Below, piece after piece: positions 6,133-57,859 of a stretch of 64,000 nt of DNA (positions are counted from its first letter, which is position 1; each line of letters starts with the position of its first letter). The notes beneath the pieces were generated by a model. It was not told the DNA's origin. It ran no database searches and saw nothing but the letters and a program-made list of their open reading frames with translations. The position numbers were made by a program, and so were the translations under genes. The DNA is taken from positions 23,932,001-23,996,000 of the forward strand of contig OZ360246.1 in NCBI GenBank assembly GCA_977017645.1. Direction: 5' to 3'. The stretch comes from Torpedo marmorata (Eukaryota).

Positions 6133-6277
6133 CAGTGGTTCTCAACCTTTATATTTTCCACTCACATACCACTTTAAGTAATCCCTTACTAACCACAGAG
6201 TACCTATGGAATCCTATGGTTAGTAAGGGATTACTTAAGGTGGTATGTGAGTTGAAAAAGAAGGTTGAGAACCACTG
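6133..6277. mobile_element. hAT/Charlie-type palindromic MITE
   Basis: TIR CAGTGGTTCTCAACCTT; imperfect 8-bp TSD ctctcgag/ctgtagag. Confidence 0.85.
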
Positions 6278-6717: not shown

Positions 6718-7212
6718 TTCAAGATTCAAGATTCCTTTAATGTCACATAATAGTACAGAACATGTAGTATTACACGAAATTGCCTTCTGCTTGCCATAAG
6801 ACAGAGAAAGGGTCGCCATTAGTGTCGCCGGCGCCCCTTACAGTAAGAGAGAAAGAGAAGCAAAAGAGAGTCCCTTCAGAGTCACTGAGTGTCCGTGGAT
6901 TCACCTCCAGCGCTCCTGCAGCTGCACAGACTCCTGTTCGATCCATCGGCAACCCGAGCTCCAGATCCAAACCTCCGACACGATCAGGAAGCCTTCAGCG
7001 CCCGAGGCTCTTCGGGGGCCCTTCTTGCCCTCAGCACCCTCTCGAATCCGGGCTCCGATACCTGGTTCCCATATGCCAGTCTCCAGCAGCCCGCAGCCTG
7101 CGCGGATCCCCCGACCGCTATCGCCCGCAGCCTGTGTGGGTCCCTCAGCCGGTGAGCCCCTCGCTGGTCCGCCGCCGTGGTCACCATCCTGTAGGGTCAT
7201 CTCCTCTGCTTA
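6718..7212 (-). mobile_element. 5'-truncated copy of the GC-rich non-autonomous retroelement
   Basis: Reverse complement matches the 3' two-thirds of the family; (gaatctt)n tail at the left end. Confidence 0.75.
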
Positions 7213-7984
7213 TTCCTTCCACGTTCCCATCAACTCTCTCCAGAATCTACGATGTACCTCTGCGTCAGGGGTGATTTGCACTGGCCAATTAACCAATTGA
7301 CCCGCACATCATTGGGATATGAATCTACTATCCCGCACATCTTCTGGATATAGGAAGAAACTGGAGAAGCCAGAGAAAGGCCACACGGAGAAAACGCAAA
7401 ATACTGGCAGAAGTAGGATCGAACCTGCGTAACCGGAATTGTGAGGCATCGACTCTATTAGCTCCGTCACTGTCCCACTCTCTAGTTGGTAAACCTGTGA
7501 GGTTTGAGAGTAAGACCGATGGGCTCTGCCTGCTTTTTCTGGATTGGAGAGCAGGGTCGAGGGGCCTTCCTTCTCCTCTGTGACTACGAAGACCGTCACT
7601 CACGTTTTGCTGGTCAGCTCAGCGCAAGTGGGCCAGCGGACCAGTTTCTGAGCTCAGTGACTTGACGACATCCCTTCATTCTCGCAGTGCCCGAACAGCG
7701 CGGAGACCTGCTTCAGGGGGAGCTGTACCTCAGCGAGGAATCTCTGATTGTGAGAGCGAGGGAAGTCACTGCAGAAAGGGCTGCTGATGGGGAATGGAAT
7801 CAGGGCTTCGAAGTGGAAGAATGCCTCTTGGAGTTCAGTGGCCTTTTTGCAACAGGAAAATATGCCGAGAATTATTGTCCAAAAAGACTCAAAAGGCCTC
7901 CCTGCAGGTATTAACGTAGAACATTACAACACAGTACAGGACCTTCGGCCCACGATGTTGTGCCGACCCACATATACCTACCAC

Positions 7985-8240: not shown

Positions 8241-8754
8241 CTAAACCCTCCAAACCTCATAACCCTCTATTTTTCTTTCAACTCTGTGCCTGTCTAAGTC
8301 TCTTAAATGCCCCTATTGTTCCAGCCACTACCCCTGGCAAGGCATTCCAGGCACTCACAACTCTCTGTGTGAAAAACTTACCCCTGATGTCACCCCTAAA
8401 CTTTCCTCACTTCATTTTGTACAGACGTCCTCTGGTGTTTGCTATTCCTGCCCTAGGAAAAAGGTGCTGGCTGTCTACCTTATCTACACCTCTCATAATC
8501 TTGTGGACCTCCATTAAATCACCTTTCATCCTTCTTCTGTTTTGTGAATTGTCTTGTTGAATGTTAAGCTGAATGCTCCTTTATATTGGCCATGTTTTCA
8601 TTCGGTGGCTAAATCGTATAGGCAGTCCAGGAAACTGCTGAAACCAAACCAGGTTTGTGGCGAATCAGGGCTTGAATCTCCGAGAGAGGAGGATGTTTCA
8701 TAGACTGAGGCGTCCACAGGCATTTCAGTAGTTGGTTGTTCTGCCCCCAAACAG

Positions 8755-8928
8755 ACCTCTAAACATGGACACCATGCGGGAGGCAGCCCGGATGCTGCTG
8801 GGCACACACGACTTCAGCACATTCCGCTCCTTAAACTCCGAGACTCCCTTCAAGTCACCGCTGAAGACACTGCTCCAGGCCGACCTCACTCCAGGCCTTA
8901 GCATCACCACGCAGCAGGACCACCACAG
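8755..8928 (+). CDS. PUSL1: PUSL1 internal exon (human exon 5 equivalent)
   Basis: aaacag| to |gtgaga; 174 nt, phase 2/2. PLNMDTMREAARMLLGTHDFSTFRSLNSETPFKSPLKTL contains the TruA GTHDFS.F motif. Confidence 0.95.
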
Positions 8929-9061
8929 GTGAGAAGACTGCCCGCTTGCTCATCCGCACCCCCGCCTCCCTCAATCTGGCGGGGGAGGGGACGTGGAAGG
9001 TGTGACTGTCATGAGATGTCAAAGTGTGGATGAAAGTTTTAAACTGATCTCTGGTGGGAGG

Positions 9062-9470
9062 GCAGCTTCTTCCCCTCTGCCATCAGATTCCTGAATGATC
9101 AATGAACCAAAGACACTCCCTTACAGCACCAATAGCCTGAATACGACTGGGATTGTCTGATCTCGGAAGCTAAGCAGGCACAGGACTGGTCAGTACTTGG
9201 AGGGGAGACCGCCTAGGAACACCAGGTGCTGTAGGTTTCTCAAAGTAGCGACTCTCTGTCTGCCTTACGGTAGACAAAAATTAAAGAATTTCATGTATGT
9301 TACATTCTAAATGTAGTATTACGTGACAATAATGGAACCTTTAACTTTCACTTTTTGTGCACTATTTTTATTTATTTTCGTAAGGTGATTTATATGAATG
9401 CTTGCTTTGTGATGCTGCCGTAAAGCAATGAATTTCGTGACTTGTTCATGACAATAAATTCTGATTCTGA
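9062..9470 (+). mobile_element. Rex1-type 3' fragment interrupted by the 5S-SINE
   Basis: Sequence on either side of 9120-9345 joins to the same tail as the copies at 1300-1480 and 26263-26450. Confidence 0.8.
9120..9345 (+). mobile_element. 5S rRNA-derived SINE (SINE3-like) with LINE-type tail
   Basis: About 9120-9238 aligns to full-length 5S rRNA (GTCTGATCTCGGAAGCTAAGCAGG...AGTACTTGGAGGGGAGACCGCCT...GGTGCTGTAGG). It is followed by a tail with hairpin tgtctgcc-ttac-ggtagaca and gtgacaataa. Confidence 0.8.
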
Positions 9471-9933
9471 AGGGTGGTGGGGGGGATCTGGGGGCCAGTG
9501 AGAGTCGGTACAGGGCTTCATTCAAGTAAAAGACTTTCCATTCAGCTGGGCTGTGGGAAGAGCTGACCAGGGCAGCATCACTGTTGTGGGCATCAACAGT
9601 GTGTGGAGTAACATTGAGAAGTTTTTCATGATGGTCAATAATTTTCCACAAGAGAGGGGACAGTAAACTAGAAGGCAAGTTCCAATTTTGTTTTATGGAG
9701 TATTACAGCCTGTGCTACGTAACTGGCCCCCTGGGACTGTGCACAACATTCTTTGCTCTTTGTGGAACGTTTTGCAGTTACAGCCAAGGACATTCTCCTT
9801 GTTCTGCCCCATTATAACCTCAGCACCATTCTCACTTTCCAGCGTGGATGCAACAGTTTACCCTCCTGCCTCACAGCTCCTGGGATCTCGGGTTCGATCC
9901 CACCCTTGAGTCCTGTCCTGTATTCTTCAATGT

Positions 9934-10115
9934 TGGGTGGCACGGTTAGCGTAGAGTTTGTACATTCTTCCCGTGTCGGCGTGGGTTTCCTCCGGGTGCT
10001 CCAGTTTCCTCCCACCGTCCAAAAATTATGGGGGTTGTAGGTCAATTGGGTGTAATTGGGCAGCACGGGCTCGTGGGCCGAAAGGGCCTGTTACCGTGCT
10101 GCATGTCTAAATGTT
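9934..10115 (+). mobile_element. V-SINE, internally deleted
   Basis: V-domain and tail of the same family. Confidence 0.8.
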
Positions 10116-27795: not shown

Positions 27796-29754
27796 TTTTT
27801 TTTTAAAAATTAAAATATTTTATTTTCATTTTTAACAAACAATAAAACAAAATACTTCAAAAACAGATATCACATTATATAGTAATACAATAAAAGTAAC
27901 ATATATAATAAAAAAAAACTATTACCCTAAACCTCCCCCCAAAGAAAAAAAAACTAAACAAAACAAGTGGTCGACAATGTTTATATAATTACTAATTTCA
28001 AATATATAAAAGAAAGAAAAACTCAAAGGCTTCCCGGCAACAGGGCTTATCACATGAAGGAACCCAAAACAAATTAATAGCAAATCTTCTTTAATTTATC
28101 CTGACCCAAAATAATCTAAATAAGGTTGCCAAATTTTATAAAAAATAACCTGTTTGTTTTTAATGTTATACGTAATACAGAACCTTTTTTTTTGCTATTT
28201 TCAGTTACGATCATATCTTAGGAATACTTTAGGACCTGATATGGTCCTACCCTCATTGACAGATGCGGAAAAAATATTTCAGGAAGGAAATACGTATAAT
28301 TTTGAGAATATATTTATTGTTACAAGAATTTATTGTTACAAGATCAAGAGCCTAAAGTGGGACATAATAAGTCCAGGATAGGATGGGAATCAGACTTAGG
28401 TATAGTAATTGATGAAGAATTATGGTCAGAATTGTGTCAGAATAGTATGTTAATTACTATAAATGTACGTTATAGATTGGTCTCCCATAATTTTCTTCAT
28501 CAATTATATTTGACTCCACAGAAATTACAAATTTAAACCAGAATTATCAGAGATGTGTTTTAGATGTGGAACAGAGGTTGGTTCTTTTTTACATTCAACA
28601 TGGATGTGCTGTGATCTACCCTTTACGATGAGAGAAGTTAATGAGGTTTTATCGACGTTGAAAAGTGGTAAATCCCCTGGTGATGATGGATTTCCAGTAG
28701 AATTTTATAAGGAATTTAAAGATTTATTAATACCTCCATATATGGAAGTATTGAATCAAATTACGGAAACCCATTTATTACCGAAAACTTTTTTGAATGC
28801 TATTATTACAGTTATACCAAAGAAAGATAGAGATGTATTAAAAACTGAGTCATATAGACCTATTTCTTTACTAAATGTAGATTATAAAATAATGGCAAAA
28901 ATTTTGGCTAATAGAATAGCTAAATATTTACCAAATTTGATACATTCAGATCAAGCTGGCTTTATTAAAAATAGATATTCAAAAGATAATATAGCTAGAT
29001 TATTAAGTTTAATTAATTTACATAAAAAGAAACAGGATTTACCATTGGTGGTAACGCTGGATGCAGAAAAGGCTTTTGATAGATTAGAATGGAATTTTTT
29101 ATTTAAGGTGTTAGAGAAATTTGGTTTTGGGAATATTTTTATAAATTGGATTAAAACTATATATAGAGAACCTACAGCTAAAGTAATTACAAATGGACAA
29201 ATATCGCCAAAATTTCCTTTAACGCGTTCTACGAGGCAGGGGTGTCCCCTATCACCAGCCCTATTTGTTTTGGCAATAGAACCTTTGGCTGAATTGATTA
29301 GGATAGATCCTAATATAGTAGGGATTAAAGTAGGTACGGAAGAACATAAGATTAGTTTGTTTGCAGATGATGTATTAATATATATGACGAAATCTATTAC
29401 ATCACTTCAACAACTAGCTATTATATTAACAGAATATGGTGAAATATCTGGGTATAAAATTAATTCAGATAAAAGTGAAATAATGGCCTTATCTCAAGGT
29501 GATTATACTAGATGTAGAGAGGTTACGGAATTTAAGTGGGCAAAAGAAGGAATTAAATATTCGGGAGTTAAAGTGGATACAAAATTAGAAAATTTATATA
29601 AATTAAATTATGTACCTTTATTTACGAAAATAAAGAAAGATTTGGAAAATTGGAAAGATTTGCCTATAACTTTAATGGGAAGAGTAAATTGTATTAAGAT
29701 GAATATTTTTCCAAGAATTCAATATCTTTTTCAATCAATTCCTTTTGGAATTCC

Positions 29755-29796
<42 letters not shown>

Positions 29797-31618
29797 TTTA
29801 AAGTTTATTATTAGGAAATTTTTATGGAAAGGGAAGTTGGCAAGAGTAAGTATGGATAAGTTAACATGGAATTATGAGATGGGAGGATTGCAACTTCCTA
29901 ATTTTCAATATTATTATAAAGCAGCTCAATTAAAATTTGTTAATGAATTTTTTGATTTAGCTAAAACTTCTGCCTGGGTCAATATAGAATTAAATAATAT
30001 AGGAGAAAATTATAAAGAGAATATTATTTATAAGTGGAATTCTAAATTATTATTAGTAAGAAAGAAAAATTCACCGATTATTAAACATTTGTTGGAAATA
30101 TGGACGCAGGTAGATAAAGAAATAGGTGGGAAAGGGTTAATTTCTTTAAATATGCCATTATATCAAAATCCACTTTTACCATTTACTATGAACAATCAGT
30201 TATTGAAAGTATGGTTTCAAAAAGGAATTAAGAATTTTAAAGATTGTTTTGAGGCTGGAAGATTTGTTACATTTCAAAGATTGAAGGAAAAATTTAATGT
30301 ATTAGATAATACATGGTTAGCTTATTATCAAGTTAAAGCTTTTTTGACTGAGAAATTAGGGGATGATTTGATTGCTCCAAGACAAAATGAGTTAGAATTA
30401 TTAATAATTAAAGCAAATGTTAATAAGTTTATTTCTCAAATGTATAAATTATTTCAGAGAAAAATGCCTAAAGTAGGATTACATAAATCAAGATTTAAAT
30501 GGGAATTAGATTTAAATGTTAATATAGCTGAACATCATTGGAAAGATTTATGTAAATTAAGTATGACTAAAGTTATTAATGTTAGGTATAGATTAGTACA
30601 ATATAATTTTTTCCATCAATTATATTTAACACCAAAAAAATTAAAGAAATTTAATCCGACATTATCGGATTTGTGTTTTAGATGTAAGAGTGAAGTAGGT
30701 TCTTTTGTTCATTCTACATGGTTATGTCCAAAAATTCAAGATTTTTGGTTGAAAGTTAAGAATTTTTTAGACAGAGTTTTTAATGTTATGTTTCCAATGG
30801 AACCTATGTTATTTTTATTTGGAGATATTAGAAAATTTAGTATTAGGATTAGATTGAATATGTATCAGGTAGAATTTTTACGGATTGCTTTAGCTGTTTC
30901 AAAAAAATGTATTGCTATTACTTGGAAATCAGATTTAGATTTAAGTTTAGACAGGTGGCATGCAGAACTCCGTTCGTGTATTCCTCTGGAAAAGATTACT
31001 TATAATTTACGTAATAAGTATCATTCTTTTTTAAAAATTTGGAGCCCATATATGAGAGTTATGGGTTTAAGGATTTGAAATCTCTAGATATCAGGTCTAT
31101 TGGCGAGTTTAACCTCCATGATAAAAATCAGTTTGTAGATGGTTCTCCCCTTACTATTAATCTATCTTTCTTTTTTACTATGTATTTTTTTTTTAAATTA
31201 TTATTCTTTTTTTTTAGAATAGTGGGGATGGGGGGGTTTGGGAAGGGAGGGAGGGTGTGGGGGAGGAAATATATATCACTTGTATTTTGAAAGTTACATA
31301 TTTTGATTTATGTATTTTGTGATTTAAAAATTTAAATAAAATATTTTAAAAAAACATGGATGTGCTGTAAGTTGAGACAATTTTGGCATAATCTCTGTGA
31401 CATCTTATCTAAAGTTATTTGAGTTACTCTAATATTAGATCCAGAGATCTGCCTTTTGGGAAATTTTACTATTAAGGACACCCTAACCAGATATCAAAAT
31501 ATATTTTTGGGAATAGCTTTTTGTGTGGCTTGAAAGTGTTTAATGACTACTTGGAAGTCAGATTCCCCATTGTCTATTGATAGATGGACCTCAGAAATAA
31601 ATAGTTATATTCCATTGG
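27796..31618 (-). mobile_element. Older L1-clade insertion with 5' inversion, bounded by a 15-bp TSD
   Basis: TSD agaaaatgaattttc at 27781-27795 and 31619-31633. Poly(A) and 3' end on minus (27796-28176, ITYNIKNK..FYKIWQPYLDY). The inverted ORF2 segment is on plus (28177-28612 and 31369-31618). Confidence 0.85.
28613..31352 (+). mobile_element. Young 5'-truncated L1-clade element (ORF2 RT and C-terminal Cys domain) nested in the older L1
   Basis: KSPGDDGF, YRPISLLNVDYKI, LDAEKAFD, RQGCPLSP, LFADD and CFRC...HSTWLC motifs; AATAAA plus A-tail; 16-bp TSD aacatggatgtgctgt at 28597-28612 and 31353-31368. Confidence 0.95.
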
Positions 31619-43250: not shown

Positions 43251-44286
43251 GTTACCTGAACATTACCTTAATAACAGCACGACAAAGTCCACACCGGTAC
43301 TGAGGGACAAAAACATGGACAGCTTGAGACCACCTTCCTCAGCCATGAACTGCAGTTACGAGGCTCACTTCCAGTACTACTTATTTCCAGCAGTCTATAC
43401 CATTGTGTTTGTTGTGGGTTTGATCGGAAACGTCTCAGCCCTGTGCATATTTATAAAGGAAACTAAGAAGGCCTCTCCATCTTTCATCTACATTGCAAAC
43501 CTGATTATCGTCGACCTCATTTATATTTGCACCTTGCCCTTTAGAATCCATTACCACTTAAAAAAGAATAACTGGTTCTTTGGGGACATAACTTGTCGGA
43601 TCACAGGGACCTTCTATTTTGCCAACGTTTACCTCAGCGTAATTTTCCTCAGCCTGATCTGCATGGACCGTTATATCGCAGTGGTCCACCCCAGAAAATA
43701 CATCAGAATGAGGGGCACAAACTGCTCACTGGTGACCTCAGCTCTCGTGTGGGCGATGGCCTTGGCCATCATGCTTCCATTAATCTTTGGTGGCTCGCTG
43801 AACAACCTCTGGACAAACAACACCACGGCTTGCTTCGAGAACTTTGACTTTGAGACTTGGAACAATAGAATGGCGGTGTATAACATAATGCCATTCCTCT
43901 TTGGCTTTTTCCTTCCATTTACAATTATTATTATACTTTACCCCTTGGCAGCCAAGAAAATATCCCAGCTTAAAAGCAGTGTCCACAAGAAAAAGGCTTT
44001 CACAATGATATGTATCATTATGGTGATCTCAATTCTTTGCTTTGTCCCATTTCATATTACCCACTTACTCCATTTCCTTGCTCGCATGAACTTTATTCAA
44101 AACTGTGCTTGCAAAAGCTTTCTCTACAAGACCCGGAGGGTTACCATGGCCTTGGTTAGCCTCAACTGCTGCTTGGACCCTCTGATATATTTCTTTGCAA
44201 CCAATAAATTCAAGACAAGTTATAGAACAGGTGGGGGATCACTTCAAAAGGTTTACAGCATTGCTTGGCATCGAACTGAGAGCTGA
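43251..44286 (+). CDS. Class A GPCR of the P2Y/LPAR6-like (delta) group, main coding exon; 349 aa with the upstream exon
   Basis: Seven hydrophobic segments; GN in TM1, LPF in TM2, WFFG..C in ECL1/TM3, DRY.AVVHP, CFENF in ECL2, CFVPFH in TM6, NCCLDPLIY in TM7; N-terminal NxS/T sequons. The track ATG at 43222 lies in the polypyrimidine tract before acacctccag|. AATAAA at 44547. Confidence 0.93.
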
Positions 44287-45825: not shown

Positions 45826-46588
45826 ATGGCGGCGCTGCTGGAGCCACTGTAACGGCAGCGCTGCCGCGGACCCACGGGGAGCGAGGATAGTTAACTGCCG
45901 TCAGCTCCGCACAGGCTTTGAACGGCCCGTTAAAGGAGCCAAAGGTAGTTTTATTTAAAATCCCGCGACCGCGGGGTCTGCGCCCAAGATGGCGGCACCT
46001 ATGATCGGCAGCAGCCATGAGAGGTTGCAGACTCCAGGGGAGCAGAGGACTGGCGCAGGGCACCAGAAAACGGGGAGACCACCACCCCCCCCCTTTTGAG
46101 AAGGAGAAGCAGAGGAGGCGACCCATGGGACGGTGACCATGGTGGCGGACCAGTGAGGGGGCTCGGCAGCTGAAAGACCCATGCATGCAGCAGGCTGCTG
46201 GCGACTCGAGGCGGGGAACCCGCAGAGGCTGCGGACTGCTGGAGACTGCCTCAAAATTGGCTGAAGGGGTACCAGGTATCGGAACCGGGATGCGAGGGGG
46301 TGCCGAAGGGTTCCTGACCGTGTCGGAGGTTCGGATCTGGAGCTCGGGTTGCCAATGGTTTGGACTGGACTCTGTGTGGCTGCGGAAGCGCTGGAGGCAA
46401 ATCTACGGACACTCGGTGACTCGGGAGGGGGGGGGGGGAACGACACTCTCTTTTGCTTCTCTTTCTCTGACTGGAAGAGGCGCTTCAGGCAATTTCTGCC
46501 GATGGCAAATCTGTCTGCCTTACAGCAGGCAAAAGCAATTTCATGTAATATGACACTTTTTATTACATGACAATAAATTGAATCTTGA
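45826..46588 (+). mobile_element. GC-rich non-autonomous retroelement, near full length
   Basis: Homologous along its length to 47955-48760 and 6718-7212. Contains CAAGATGGCGGC. Ends catgacaataaa + (gaatctt)n. No recognisable ORF. Confidence 0.75.
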
Positions 46589-47954
46589 TTTGTTTTGTCA
46601 AACAGCCTGTTTTTGTGCTGAATATTAGCAGGTTCATGAGAGATGACCTGTAAATATCCCAGCACCCTTCTGCAAATAGTATCTTTCTACTAGTAAGATC
46701 TGCAAACAGGAACTATTCAATCCCGTTCAAACTGTAACACAATTGACGGATATTTCTCTCCCAACACTATCCCTACAAATATAACACATTCTGATGCTCC
46801 CTGTGCCTAATATTTCTACCTTGTCCTCACTTGCAAATATTAAGCTTCCTGGGGATATAATTTGAAAATATCAACAGCTCCTTGGAGTTCACCTGCAAAA
46901 ATTGACATACTTTTGAGGACCCTTTATCTTCATCTTTAAACAGTATGTCAGCTAACGGGGGAAGATTCTGCTATTGCAGAAAACCTTTCTTTTGACACTG
47001 CAGTTACGGAAATAATGGGTTATTGAATCAACAAAGCTGCTGATGATGAATGGAAATCTGCCTGCCTGGGATTATTGTGTGAAGTGGCTGTGGTGTGAGC
47101 ACTAAAATTTGAGCACCGATTTGCAGAATATTTGTTAGAATTTTGTGGTTAATTGTGAAGAATTTGTTACAAAGTTATCCTCTGCAGCTTAAATAAAAAT
47201 GATTTTAATCACCTTCCGGGACCCTGAAATCTTTTTATGGGCATTGGTGAATGCAACAATATCCAGATGTATACAATGATTTGTTCACTATTAAAATATA
47301 ACACCTTGTAGAAACAACCTGGCCACTATGCTTGGTAGATTACTTATATTATTGCACTGCAATACAGACCTTAGTTAGAAGTGCTAATTTAGTTTCATTT
47401 CCAGAGGAATTTCATTCCAACTCCAGCCCTCAAAATGTATCTTTTTAAGAAAAATATACCGGTAACTTTTAGAAAAAGATCACTTTTGATGCAGTATTTT
47501 CAGTGTGCTCCTTTTGGATATTTATTTGCCCCAAAATCTTGTTTTTTCTGTTTTATTCTCAAAACATTTCAGCGTCAAGGGTCATTGAAAAATAATCTGG
47601 AACTTGAAATAACTTTTATCGTCTTTATGGCTCGGGATGTACTTTTTCAGGTGATATGACTACATGTCCATGCCCTCCTGCTTTAGTGCCACTTGCTCAT
47701 GTTAGGCCCATACCCCTCCAAATGCGTAATTATCCAAGTGTTTCTTAAAGGAAGCTAATGTACCTGCTTCTACCATTTTGTCTGGCACCTTGTTCTATGT
47801 GCCCCCCACCCTCAATGAATAACTGTCCCTTCATGTCCCTTCTAAATCCTACCCCCCTCGCCCTCTTGTCTTAGATTCTCCTACACGAGGAAACAGATTG
47901 TCACTATTCATCTTGTGTATGCCCCTCATAATTTTATACACCTCAAGAAAAAAA

Positions 47955-48760
47955 ATGGCAGCTCTGCCGGAGCTGCTGTAACAACAGCGCTGCTGCTGAT
48001 GTGGACCCAGGAAAGCAGAGAGCAGAGATACAGCGCTGCTCTGAAGGGTTCAACCACCTCGTTCTAATGCTGGCAGCTCCGAAAAGGAGTTAAAACAGCC
48101 TGTTAGAGGAGCTGACTGTTTTTAAACTAAAATCCTGCAACCACGGGTCTGTGCCCAAGATGGCGGCACCTGTGCTCAGCAGCAGCCACGAGGTGTTGCA
48201 GACTCCAGAGAGCAGTGAACTGGCGCAGGGCACCAGAAACAGGAAGAACACCCCTCCCCTCCAGTTGAGAAGGAGAAGCGGAAAGGCGACCCTACAGGAC
48301 AGTGACCACAGTGGTGGACCAGCGAGGGGCTCCGCAGCTGAGGGACTCACACAGGCTGCGGGGGACTTGCAGTAAGAGGACCCACACGGGCTAAGGGGTG
48401 CAGGAGACTGGCTCATGGAAACCATGTATCGGAGCCAGGATTCAAGGGGCTACTGAGGGCAAGAAGAGCTCCCAAAGGGCCTCAGGCGCTGAAGGCTTCC
48501 TGATTGTTTGCATCTGGAGCTCGGGTTGCCGATGGATCAAACAGGAGTCTGTGCGGCCGCAAACGCTGTGGGAGCACTGTAGGCGAGTTCACGGACACTT
48601 AGTAACTCTGAAGGGATTCACTTTTGCTTCTCTTTCTCTCATTCCGTAAGGGGCGCCGGGCAATACTAATGGTGACTCTGTCTGCCTTATGGCAGGCAGA
48701 AAGCAATTTTGTGTAATATTACATGTTCTGTACTTTTACATGACAATAAATGAATCTTGA
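47955..48760 (+). mobile_element. GC-rich non-autonomous retroelement inserted in a CR1 fragment
   Basis: Same head and tail as 45826-46588. The flanks rejoin as minus-strand CR1 sequence (ttttatacacctc / ataagatcccct). Confidence 0.75.
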
Positions 48761-56817: not shown

Positions 56818-56850
56818 ATCGCTTCTCAGCCTTTTGGCTAAGATCAAGTG
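56818..56850 (+). pseudogene. 3'-truncated U2 snRNA retrocopy (nt 1-33)
   Basis: ATCGCTTCTCaGCCTTTTGGCTAAGATCAAGTG equals the U2 5' end with one mismatch. Flanked by direct repeats aagtagacac(t/g)atttta at 56801-56817 and 56851-56867. Confidence 0.9.
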
Positions 56851-57859
56851 AAGTAGACACGATTTTAATGAATTCTCGTCCATTAATACACTTGCTTGTG
56901 AATATACGACACATTTTCCCCTTCATTGAAGATCACAACCAATGCCAAATTTTGGCCAGCTGTCTGGATTTTATGAGCACACTGTTACTTTGCTTTAATT
57001 ATAAACTGTGCAGCATGAGTCTGTGTACCTTCAGTGGCACCAGCATTTATCACAACCAGACTAATGTTTTGCCTCTTAAACCAATTTCTTCTGGTCAAGA
57101 ATGTACAGCAGAAGTCAGAGTCAAATATATAATGCTGAGGACTCCAGTTCTCCATCTTCCCCATAACTCTAATCCCTGTCAGATTATGTGCAAATCATCA
57201 GACAGATAAAGAGATTTTCCTGAATTTTGTTGCACAGAACAAATCAGCATTTAAGCAATGTAGTAGTATAAATATGGTTTGCAGCTGTCTAGCTGTGAAG
57301 TACTGAGTAACAATATTGAAATTATTGCTTTAAGTAGCTGAACTGATGATGGAATATGATATTTTAATACCCTTAACAATAATTTGTTTGTTAAGGGCCA
57401 ATGAAGATTTCCTCTGGTGAAACCAAGAAATAACCCTAACCTTAAATTTAAATATTAGGGTTTTAAAAGTACTGTAAGCATTAAAATAGGAAAACGATTA
57501 ATATTCTTAAGGTATTAGAAGCAGTTTCTCCTCTTCCAGGATCAAAAAAACAACCACATTTTTTTAGCTTGCCTTGCCAATCCTTTACATTGGAAAGTAG
57601 CCAGTACTAGATGCTCAGAAGAGGCAGTCTGTCATAAATCCAATCACGTAGTTGTGTAGATGGTGTAAGAATAGAAATACAAATTGAATGATATCCTTTT
57701 AAATAAAAATCTGATAGGGCAAGTTTTGACCGAGGCTAGGATAGTTCGTATATATGGGATTGAGAGATGTTACTCAGGTTGGAGTAACACAAGAAACTGA
57801 TGTGTGGACAAGTACTGCATGTTCATTATTTTTTTATTATTATAGGAAGCAAATTGTAC

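What the first reader, a model, noticed from the sequence alone, without database searches (positions are those of the whole stretch)
9120..9345. 5S rRNA-headed SINE with a Rex1-type tail, nested in a Rex1 fragment
Seen: a full-length diverged 5S copy retains A-box and C-box sequence, and its oligo-T terminator is broken (gtaggtttct). It runs into a tail of about 105 nt sharing the ctgtctgcc-tta-gg.ag.ca hairpin and tgacaataa end with the GC-rich family at 46500-46588 and 48670-48760. Known: SINE3 elements are rare, and the zebrafish example has a CR1/L2-related tail. Inference: this is an independent 5S-SINE mobilised by a Rex1/Babar LINE, possibly undescribed.
Basis: partly seen in the sequence, partly recalled or inferred. 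Interest (0 to 1): 0.7.

Follow-up and report, generated by a model that had tools for sequence, protein, structure and literature searches.

The report
Ray 5S SINE with Rex1-type tail
This is one copy of a young, very abundant short jumping repeat, likely in an electric ray, whose front half comes from the 5S ribosomal RNA gene and whose tail is likely copied by Rex1 retrotransposons, a known kind of element in a pairing I did not find described.

Summary
Real, and a family rather than a one-off. The element is 9122-9345: a 5S head (Rfam 52.8 bits; 98/121 identical to this genome's 5S genes; A/IE/C boxes kept; terminator cut to three T) joined directly to a tail of about 120 nt. The exact junction occurs 16,076 times (control 0); copies are about 2.3% diverged and lack target-site duplications. 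A tRNA-Thr-headed sister shares the tail (119/123). This copy splits a Rex1 3' fragment in an intron. Corrections: the GC-rich family that matches the tail (z about 21) encodes no reverse transcriptase, so it is not the partner; the host Rex1 family's tail does not match (z about 0-1); one other Rex1 family matches weakly (z 4-5); no LINE with the same tail was found. The Rex1 link rests on a shared terminal hairpin plus GACAATAA and on reciprocal nesting, so it is inferred. This copy has a 15-nt deletion shared only with a twin 50.6 kb away. Not found in nine literature searches; Repbase and Dfam unchecked. The scan noted this family before on other DNA (three notes). New variant of a known kind; modest interest.

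The parts
9122..9345 (+). One copy of the 5S-headed SINE (family about 237 nt plus repeat; this copy lacks 15 nt)
9122..9237 (+). 5S rRNA-derived head (5S nt 4-119)
   Evidence: Rfam RF00001 9119-9237, 52.8 bits; 98/121 identity of the family majority to the genomic 5S gene
9168..9182 (+). Box A of the type-1 Pol III promoter (13/15 as in the 5S gene)
   Evidence: alignment; box position recalled
9185..9190 (+). Intermediate element (5/6 as in the gene)
   Evidence: position recalled
9198..9215 (+). Box C (16/18 as in the gene)
   Evidence: position recalled
9236..9241 (+). Broken terminator (three T instead of five) and the site of the private 15-nt deletion (between 9240 and 9241)
9257..9276 (+). 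Tail hairpin 1 (8-bp stem, 4-nt loop), shared with the GC-rich family
9291..9332 (+). Tail hairpin 2, closing at GA and followed by CAATAA; a similar predicted layout ends Rex1 families A-D
9338..9345 (+). 3' microsatellite (CCTTTA-type unit; 0-4 units per copy, mostly 1-3)
9059..9121 (+). Host Rex1 fragment, left half (end of ORF, FFPSAIRFLND, and start of the 3' UTR)
   Evidence: family ORF carries RVT_1 and a sub-threshold PF09004 match
9346..9470 (+). Host Rex1 fragment, right half of the 3' UTR ending in ATTCTG repeats
47948..48760 (+). GC-rich non-autonomous element (about 800 bp) whose last 120 nt are homologous to the SINE tail
45826..46588 (+). Second copy of the GC-rich element
6724..7219 (-). 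Third, partial copy of the GC-rich element
8753..8929 (+). Exon of a tRNA pseudouridine synthase gene (PUSL1-like, name inferred); the SINE lies in the following intron
   Evidence: PseudoU_synth_1, E 4e-05, above cut-off; GT donor after 8929

Best explanation
The stretch is one copy of a young, high-copy 5S-headed SINE (SINE3 class) that is likely transcribed by RNA polymerase III from its 5S promoter and likely copied into new sites by the reverse transcriptase of a Rex1/Babar LINE. Shown: the 5S head with promoter boxes, the lost terminator, at least 16,076 identical junctions, dispersed unrelated flanks, frequent 5' truncation, a variable 3' microsatellite, no target-site duplication, a tRNA-Thr-headed sister with the same tail, and homology of the tail to the end of a non-autonomous GC-rich element. 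Inferred: Pol III reads through the broken terminator into the tail. The tail folds into two hairpins, the second closing just before CAATAA as predicted for the Rex1 3' ends. A Rex1 EN-RT protein binds this end and primes reverse transcription at a nick where the CCTTTA repeat can pair (here a CCTTAC site in the host). The family likely arose by template switching that put a 5S head on an existing tail; which head came first is unresolved. The helper is probably one of the Rex1 families active at the same time (A or C by nesting, B by sequence), not a LINE with an identical tail.
For: Family: 16,076 exact 26-nt junctions, control 0; 26,816 exact 3' 18-mers; 8,894 exact 5' 20-mers. Of the first 100 tail hits, 78 were 5S-headed (42 read; 36 not fetched, matched by hand to junction hits), 8 tRNA-headed, 14 too truncated to tell, 0 attached to a LINE. 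Mean non-CpG divergence 2.3% (n=42). No TSD of 10 nt or more in 92 copies; a slight excess of 6-8 nt matches (13/92 at 6 or more, null 7%). Tail against GC-rich element z about 21; against Rex1 family B z 5.4 (one copy, 0/1000) and 4.2 (majority, one shuffle tied it). GACAATAA plus a microsatellite ends the SINE, the GC element and Rex A, B and D (C has GACAAATAAA). The closing stem has probability 0.98-0.99 in SINE and sister (2/100 and 5/100 shuffles reach it). Reciprocal nesting: SINE inside RexA 5 and RexA inside SINE 4; SINE inside RexC 4 and RexC inside SINE 1, so they were active at overlapping times. A near-complete RexA copy has endonuclease and RT frames. Related subfamilies in coded organisms B and F, and near-identical copies in D.
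Against: No ORF-bearing LINE with the SINE's tail was seen in 0/100 tail hits, 0/20 loci with an ORF end within 300 nt (all nested or adjacent insertions), or among the 100 listed of 424 hairpin-plus-ORF-end matches (judged from the first 80 letters). The tail is not similar to RexA (z 0.1-1.1), RexC or RexD. The terminal hairpin beats shuffles at 5% or better in only 1 of 8 natural Rex copies and 2 of 3 GC copies. The link between the GC element's 5' part and the RexA 5' region is not significant (score 55, null maximum 59). RexB, the best sequence match, was not seen inserted into a SINE: its 3 entries are cross-matches of RexA insertions. The nesting sample was enriched by my own patterns. 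L2 and CR1 tails of this genome were not compared. Transcription was not shown.
Confidence: 0.8

Rival explanations
1. It is a 5S SINE, but its partner is a LINE I did not sample: a rare or extinct Rex1 family with the same tail, or a non-Rex LINE (L2, CR1) with a similar end.
For: None of the four ORF-linked Rex1 tails sampled matches closely; only B reaches z 4-5. Kojima 2020 says vertebrate SINE3 are moved by CR1-clade LINEs. My ORF-end patterns cover only some Rex1 families and UTRs under about 350 nt.
Against: GACAATAA plus microsatellite ends were attached to Rex1-type ORFs in the clusters examined. The tail shares hairpin 1, the spacer and TGTATGT with RexB. A cognate LINE active 2% ago should have left young 3' fragments, and none appeared in 100 tail hits.
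Confidence: 0.15
2. One-off template-switch chimera, or a processed 5S pseudogene next to a repeat.
For: The window's exact junction exists only twice in the genome.
Against: That junction is a 15-nt deletion of a junction present 16,076 times. About 20 head substitutions relative to the 5S gene are shared by the family.
Confidence: 0.01
3. For this copy only: its present sequence came from DNA-level copying (gene conversion or repair synthesis) to or from the twin 50.6 kb upstream, not from a separate retrotransposition of a deleted source.
For: The deletion junction occurs exactly twice in 6.2 Gb, both on C60. The two copies are 99.1% identical over 225 nt with unrelated insertion points (sense and antisense in different RexA fragments) and no flank duplication across 62 kb. 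Both carry a five-site haplotype seen in 1 of 29 sampled copies.
Against: An assembly or polishing artefact is not excluded, because no run covering the unique flank was available. A deleted source with two nearby daughters is improbable but possible.
Confidence: 0.55
4. The family is already catalogued (Repbase, Dfam or an automatic repeat library of a ray genome), so only my knowledge of it is new.
For: Tens of thousands of young copies in several species would be caught by any de novo repeat search.
Against: No mention in nine full-text searches. The 2013 SINE/LINE table and the 2024 table of rDNA-derived elements list no 5S SINE for sharks or rays in the rows seen.
Confidence: 0.35

Closest known systems
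Zebrafish SINE3 / AmnSINE1 (5S-headed DeuSINEs)
   Same: 5S head with internal promoter; LINE-type tail. Absence of TSDs and microsatellite ends in SINE3 is recalled from Kapitonov & Jurka 2003, which was not held.
   Different: Those carry a Deu domain and pair with CR1-4_DR-type LINEs (PMC3747384 table; PMC5499810 passage). Here the tail starts directly at the 5S end and resembles Rex1-type ends.
OS-SINE1 with SlmI and HpaI (salmonids)
   Same: A 5S-headed SINE sharing its tail with tRNA-headed SINEs.
   Different: OS-SINE1 is a DeuSINE with an RSg-1 tail. The clade of RSg-1 was not stated in the passages I read; if it is Rex1-like, the pairing has a precedent.
HaSE1/HaSE3 (moth) and CoeSINE4/CoeSINE5 (coelacanth)
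   Same: A tRNA-headed and a 5S-headed SINE with nearly the same 3' part; template switching was proposed for HaSE3.
   Different: Both pairs have RTE-derived tails; HaSE copies often have TSDs.
SINE2-5_NV with Rex1-24_NV (sea anemone)
   Same: A SINE paired with a Rex1 LINE; the only Rex1 pair in the 2013 table rows seen.
   Different: tRNA head, cnidarian, and a cognate LINE was identified.
Bipartite non-autonomous LINE derivatives as SINE tail donors (Kojima 2018, 2020)
   Same: The GC-rich element of about 800 bp may be such a derivative and the donor of the tail.
   Different: Described for RTE and Vingi; the LINE origin of the GC element's 5' part was not significant here.

Membership tests
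SINE (SINEBase definition, PMC3531059) | Short (<1 kb), interspersed, non-tandem | tested here: met
   237-nt majority; unrelated flanks on many contigs
SINE (SINEBase definition, PMC3531059) | At least 100 copies | tested here: met
   16,076 exact junctions
SINE (SINEBase definition, PMC3531059) | At least 60% identity to tRNA, 5S or 7SL over at least 60 nt | tested here: met
   98/121 to the genomic 5S gene
SINE (SINEBase definition, PMC3531059) | Distinct from RNA pseudogenes: extra body and family-shared substitutions | tested here: met
   120-nt tail and about 20 shared head changes
SINE3 (5S-headed SINE) | 5S-derived head with boxes A, IE and C | tested here: met
   box positions recalled
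SINE3 (5S-headed SINE) | Transcription by Pol III from that promoter | not testable with these tools
   No raw RNA reads were available
DeuSINE (zebrafish SINE3, AmnSINE1, OS-SINE1) | Central Deu domain between head and tail | tested here: not met
   Everything after the 5S end aligns to the GC element's 3' end (tail positions 3-121 of 123), leaving no room; no Deu sequence was available for direct comparison
Rex1-partnered SINE | 3' end shared with an ORF-bearing Rex1 LINE of the same genome | tested here: inconclusive
   RexB z 4.2-5.4; RexA, C, D not significant; shared terminal motif and predicted hairpin; no cognate LINE found
Rex1-partnered SINE | Activity overlapping in time with a Rex1 family | tested here: met
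   Reciprocal nesting with RexA (5 and 4) and RexC (4 and 1) in a pattern-enriched sample
Rex1-partnered SINE | Mobilisation in trans by Rex1 protein | not testable with these tools
   Needs a cell-culture assay
CR1- or L2-partnered SINE | 3' end shared with a CR1 or L2 LINE | not tested
   CR1 and L2 tails of this genome were not collected
Rex1/Babar LINE (host fragment and families A-D) | AP endonuclease upstream of RT, conserved 3' UTR and terminal oligonucleotide repeat (PMC6274825) | tested here: met
   RVT_1, Exo_endo_phos_2 (E 2.4e-05, below cut-off) and PF09004 (below cut-off); repeats. The Rex1 label rests on recalled motifs; no RT tree was built

The most novel reading that the evidence does not exclude
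The first 5S-headed SINE moved by Rex1/Babar and the first in cartilaginous fishes. It has no cognate LINE: it, its tRNA-headed sister and an 800-bp non-autonomous element are all copied by Rex1 families whose tails differ in sequence but share one hairpin-plus-GACAATAA module. Rex1 would then recognise RNA by a clade-wide structure, and this genome offers a ready set of natural substrates to test that.
Probability: 0.35. Interest if true: 0.55.

Novelty: new variant of a known kind. Interest (0 to 1): 0.33.

Why it matters
5S-headed SINEs are rare (2.3% of the first SINEBase release, PMC10946416), and the vertebrate ones in the passages read pair with CR1-type, RTE or RSg-1 LINEs. A 5S head on a Rex1-type tail adds a further likely independent origin and a partner clade whose RNA recognition I found no study of. 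The 5S family outnumbers its tRNA-headed sister about ten to one (78 against 8 of 100 tail hits), the reverse of the moth HaSE pair, so the two form a natural comparison of type-1 and type-2 Pol III promoters on one tail. Practically, more than 20,000 young insertions without TSDs are likely phylogenetic markers for rays and a source of false 5S rDNA signals. It remains modular reshuffling of known parts, not a new mechanism.

Tried and rejected
Partner search. (a) 64 of the first 100 tail hits were read and 36 matched by hand to junction hits: no LINE. (b) Tail plus ORF-end pattern: 159 hits, 20 loci read, all nested or adjacent insertions. (c) Hairpin plus ORF-end pattern: 424 hits, 100 listed, 30 fetched, no LINE with the tail evident. 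(d) Clustering of 509 GACAATAA-type ends from 670 kb of loci gave four ORF-linked Rex families and the GC element.
Apparent 'Rex1 end + SINE end' chimeras suggested template switching by RexA. Rejected for L153 and L164, where the SINE's 5' part lies upstream, so Rex inserted into the SINE; L151, L161 and L162 showed no upstream part within the locus.
GC element as an autonomous LINE or a LINE's long UTR: rejected. It has a discrete 5' end in most of 15 top copies and no RT frame; top hits are selected for full length. Its 5' similarity to RexA is not significant.
Segmental duplication as the cause of the twin: rejected, no flank duplication in 62 kb. Checking the twin in run X1 failed because the unique flank had no cover.
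Expression: no RNA holder listed; run X4 is only guessed to be RNA; no conclusion drawn.
Nearest-neighbour ages of Rex families are confounded by cross-matches between families and were not used.
Apparent compensatory change in 5S helix I: not claimed, because the donor 5S variant is unknown and rays have two 5S classes (PMC3123226 passages).
Papers not held: Nishihara 2006 and Kapitonov & Jurka 2003. The SINEBase supplement was unreadable; its family table could list a matching element. PMC2746220 was seen only as a search listing.

Full report
Setting. The window is G000:C60:23932001-23996000 of a 6.22-Gb assembly. A GPCR in the window is 91% identical to a Narcine bancroftii protein, 77-80% to other rays and at most 73% to the other listed proteins, so the animal is likely an electric ray (inferred). 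The element lies about 190 nt into the intron after an exon of a tRNA pseudouridine synthase gene.

Observation. Rfam finds a full-model 5S match at 9119-9237 (52.8 bits). True 5S genes form a tandem array on C25. The family majority is 98/121 identical to them, with positions 38-60 and 68-83 unchanged, so the promoter region is kept while the 5' third has drifted. The five-T terminator has become three T, and no run of four T occurs in the element. The flanks are the two halves of a Rex1 3' fragment; intact relatives in the window show the target as GCCTTAC followed by TTT, with only a few bases shared at each junction. The element proper runs from 9122 to 9345.

It is a family. The intact head-tail junction occurs 16,076 times exactly (control 0), the 3' 18-mer 26,816 times and the 5' 20-mer 8,894 times. 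Of the first 100 tail hits on C1, I read 64: the first 30, plus the 34 later ones without an exact junction nearby. These gave 29 full-length 5S, 13 5'-truncated 5S, 8 tRNA-headed and 14 tail-only copies. The other 36 were matched by hand to junction hits and not fetched. By hand, 50 of 62 junction hits had an exact tail hit, which gives roughly 25,000 5S-headed copies (estimate). Mean non-CpG divergence from the majority is 2.3% (n=42). Copies end in 0-4 CCTTTA-type units, mostly 1-3. None of 92 has a duplication of 10 nt or more; 13 of 92 have matches of 6 or more against 7% expected, which fits microhomology. Coded runs of organisms B and F hold abundant related subfamilies, some with head letters closer to the 5S gene; organism D holds near-identical copies. 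These are contigs, so they show presence only.

A sister family. The same tail carries a tRNA head in 8 of 100 hits. ARAGORN calls one copy Thr(tgt), a mutated one Ser, and finds nothing in a third. There are 957 exact junction matches, the tails are 119/123 identical, and divergence is the same, 2.4%. A few copies mix diagnostic sites (L078, L088). At one tail site the relatives B and F carry the letter of the tRNA sister in about 95% of depth. The order of the heads is not resolved.

Where the tail comes from. The whole post-5S region aligns to the last 120 nt of the GC-rich family (z about 21). That family is a discrete element of about 800 bp beginning AAAATGGCGG, with no RT frame, about 80% identical between copies and with 17,885 first-look candidates. 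It is a non-autonomous relative and possible donor, not the helper. Four ORF-linked Rex1-type 3' ends were recovered (A, the host; B; C; D). Only B resembles the tail (z 5.4 and 4.2); A, C and D do not (z -0.8 to 1.1). All end in GACAATAA, or GACAAATAAA in C, plus a microsatellite. A hairpin closing at that GA is strongly predicted for SINE and sister (0.98-0.99), but it beats shuffles at 5% in only 2 of 3 GC copies and 1 of 8 Rex copies. Three searches for a LINE with the SINE's own tail found none. Nesting is reciprocal with RexA (5 SINE-in-Rex, 4 Rex-in-SINE) and RexC (4 and 1). The SINE also sits in RexB (5) and RexD (1), with no true reverse case (sample enriched by my patterns; three 'RexB in SINE' rows dropped as cross-matches of RexA insertions). 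A near-complete RexA copy has endonuclease and RT frames, broken by frameshifts.

Mechanism. Shown: anatomy, copy number, youth, truncation pattern, lack of TSDs, shared tail, overlap in time with Rex1. Inferred: Pol III transcription through the broken terminator, recognition of the hairpin-GACAATAA end by a Rex1 protein, priming helped by the 3' repeat, and origin by head exchange through template switching (as proposed for HaSE3). I put about 0.97 on 'SINE3 family' and 0.8 on the whole, including Rex1-clade mobilisation.

This copy. It has no private substitution (sample mean 4.55; 0 of 29 sampled copies have none) but lacks 15 nt after the 5S end. That junction occurs exactly twice in the genome. 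The twin lies 50.6 kb upstream, is 99.1% identical, shares a haplotype seen in 1 of 29 copies, and is inserted antisense at another position in another RexA fragment, with no flank duplication. Recent gene conversion between neighbours is my preferred reading. An assembly artefact could not be excluded.

Comparison with what is known. All papers were seen as passages only; for PMC3747384 also part 2 of 8 of the text. It meets the SINEBase criteria (PMC3531059) and the SINE3 definition (PMC5786205, PMC7245038). It is not a DeuSINE. Pairs of 5S and tRNA heads on one tail are known: HaSE1/3, CoeSINE4/5, SlmI/OS-SINE1. A Rex1-paired tRNA SINE is known. Kojima 2020 assigns vertebrate SINE3 to CR1-clade helpers. 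The rows seen of the 2013 and 2024 tables list no 5S SINE for sharks or rays. PMC10886601 has no shark, skate or Rex mention, and PMC5499810 mentions SINE3 only for zebrafish. Nine searches found no description. The library lacks most subscription journals, and Repbase, Dfam and the SINEBase table were not seen. The clade of RSg-1 is unresolved here and bears on how new the pairing is.

Earlier scan notes describe what appears to be the same family twice in this genome and once in another. I read them after reaching my reading; they are not independent support.

Verdict. Observation confirmed; interpretation partly supported. A real, young, abundant 5S SINE of rays with a Rex1-type end and a tRNA-headed sister; helper LINE not identified; new variant of a known kind; interest 0.33.

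Noticed in passing
G000:C60:23890523-23890746 (L002:1501-1724) and window 9122-9345: The only two copies with the 15-nt deletion lie 50.6 kb apart in independent sites and are 99.1% identical: candidate recent gene conversion, or an assembly artefact.
   Followed up: partly
L033, L059, L071-L090: tRNA-Thr-headed sister SINE (197 nt, at least 957 copies, two junction variants) with the same tail.
   Followed up: yes
window 45826-46588, 47948-48760, 6724-7219; L091-L105: Non-autonomous GC-rich element of about 800 bp, no RT, promoter and origin of the 5' part unknown, more than 17,000 candidates.
   Followed up: partly
L153, L164, L166, L177, L049: Rex1 copies inserted into SINE copies, twice at the same ATTCT site that resembles the RexA terminal repeat; about ten more such junctions are listed. 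Suggests repeat-guided target choice.
   Followed up: partly
window 56818-56860: 5' fragment of U2 snRNA (Rfam 42.3 bits, below cut-off), probably a truncated retrocopy.
   Followed up: no
window 6160-6252: Near-perfect 93-nt palindrome, likely a MITE end-pair; one arm also appears next to L084, so it is repeated.
   Followed up: no
window 43318-44286: Single-frame GPCR, annotated LPAR6-like in relatives (91% to Narcine bancroftii).
   Followed up: partly
window 28514-31078: Long L1/Tx1-like RT frames (RVT_1, E 7e-42) split at a T-rich stretch; clade label recalled.
   Followed up: no
window 9930-10110: V-SINE/HE1-like element (label recalled, not tested).
   Followed up: no
L063-L070 (C25:86.20-86.56 Mb): 5S rDNA array with spacers of about 3.1-3.8 kb that appear to contain an L1-like fragment.
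   Followed up: no
L148 / L195: Near full-length Rex1-A copy with a RexC fragment nested in it and a small inverted SINE-tail piece beside its 3' end.
   Followed up: partly
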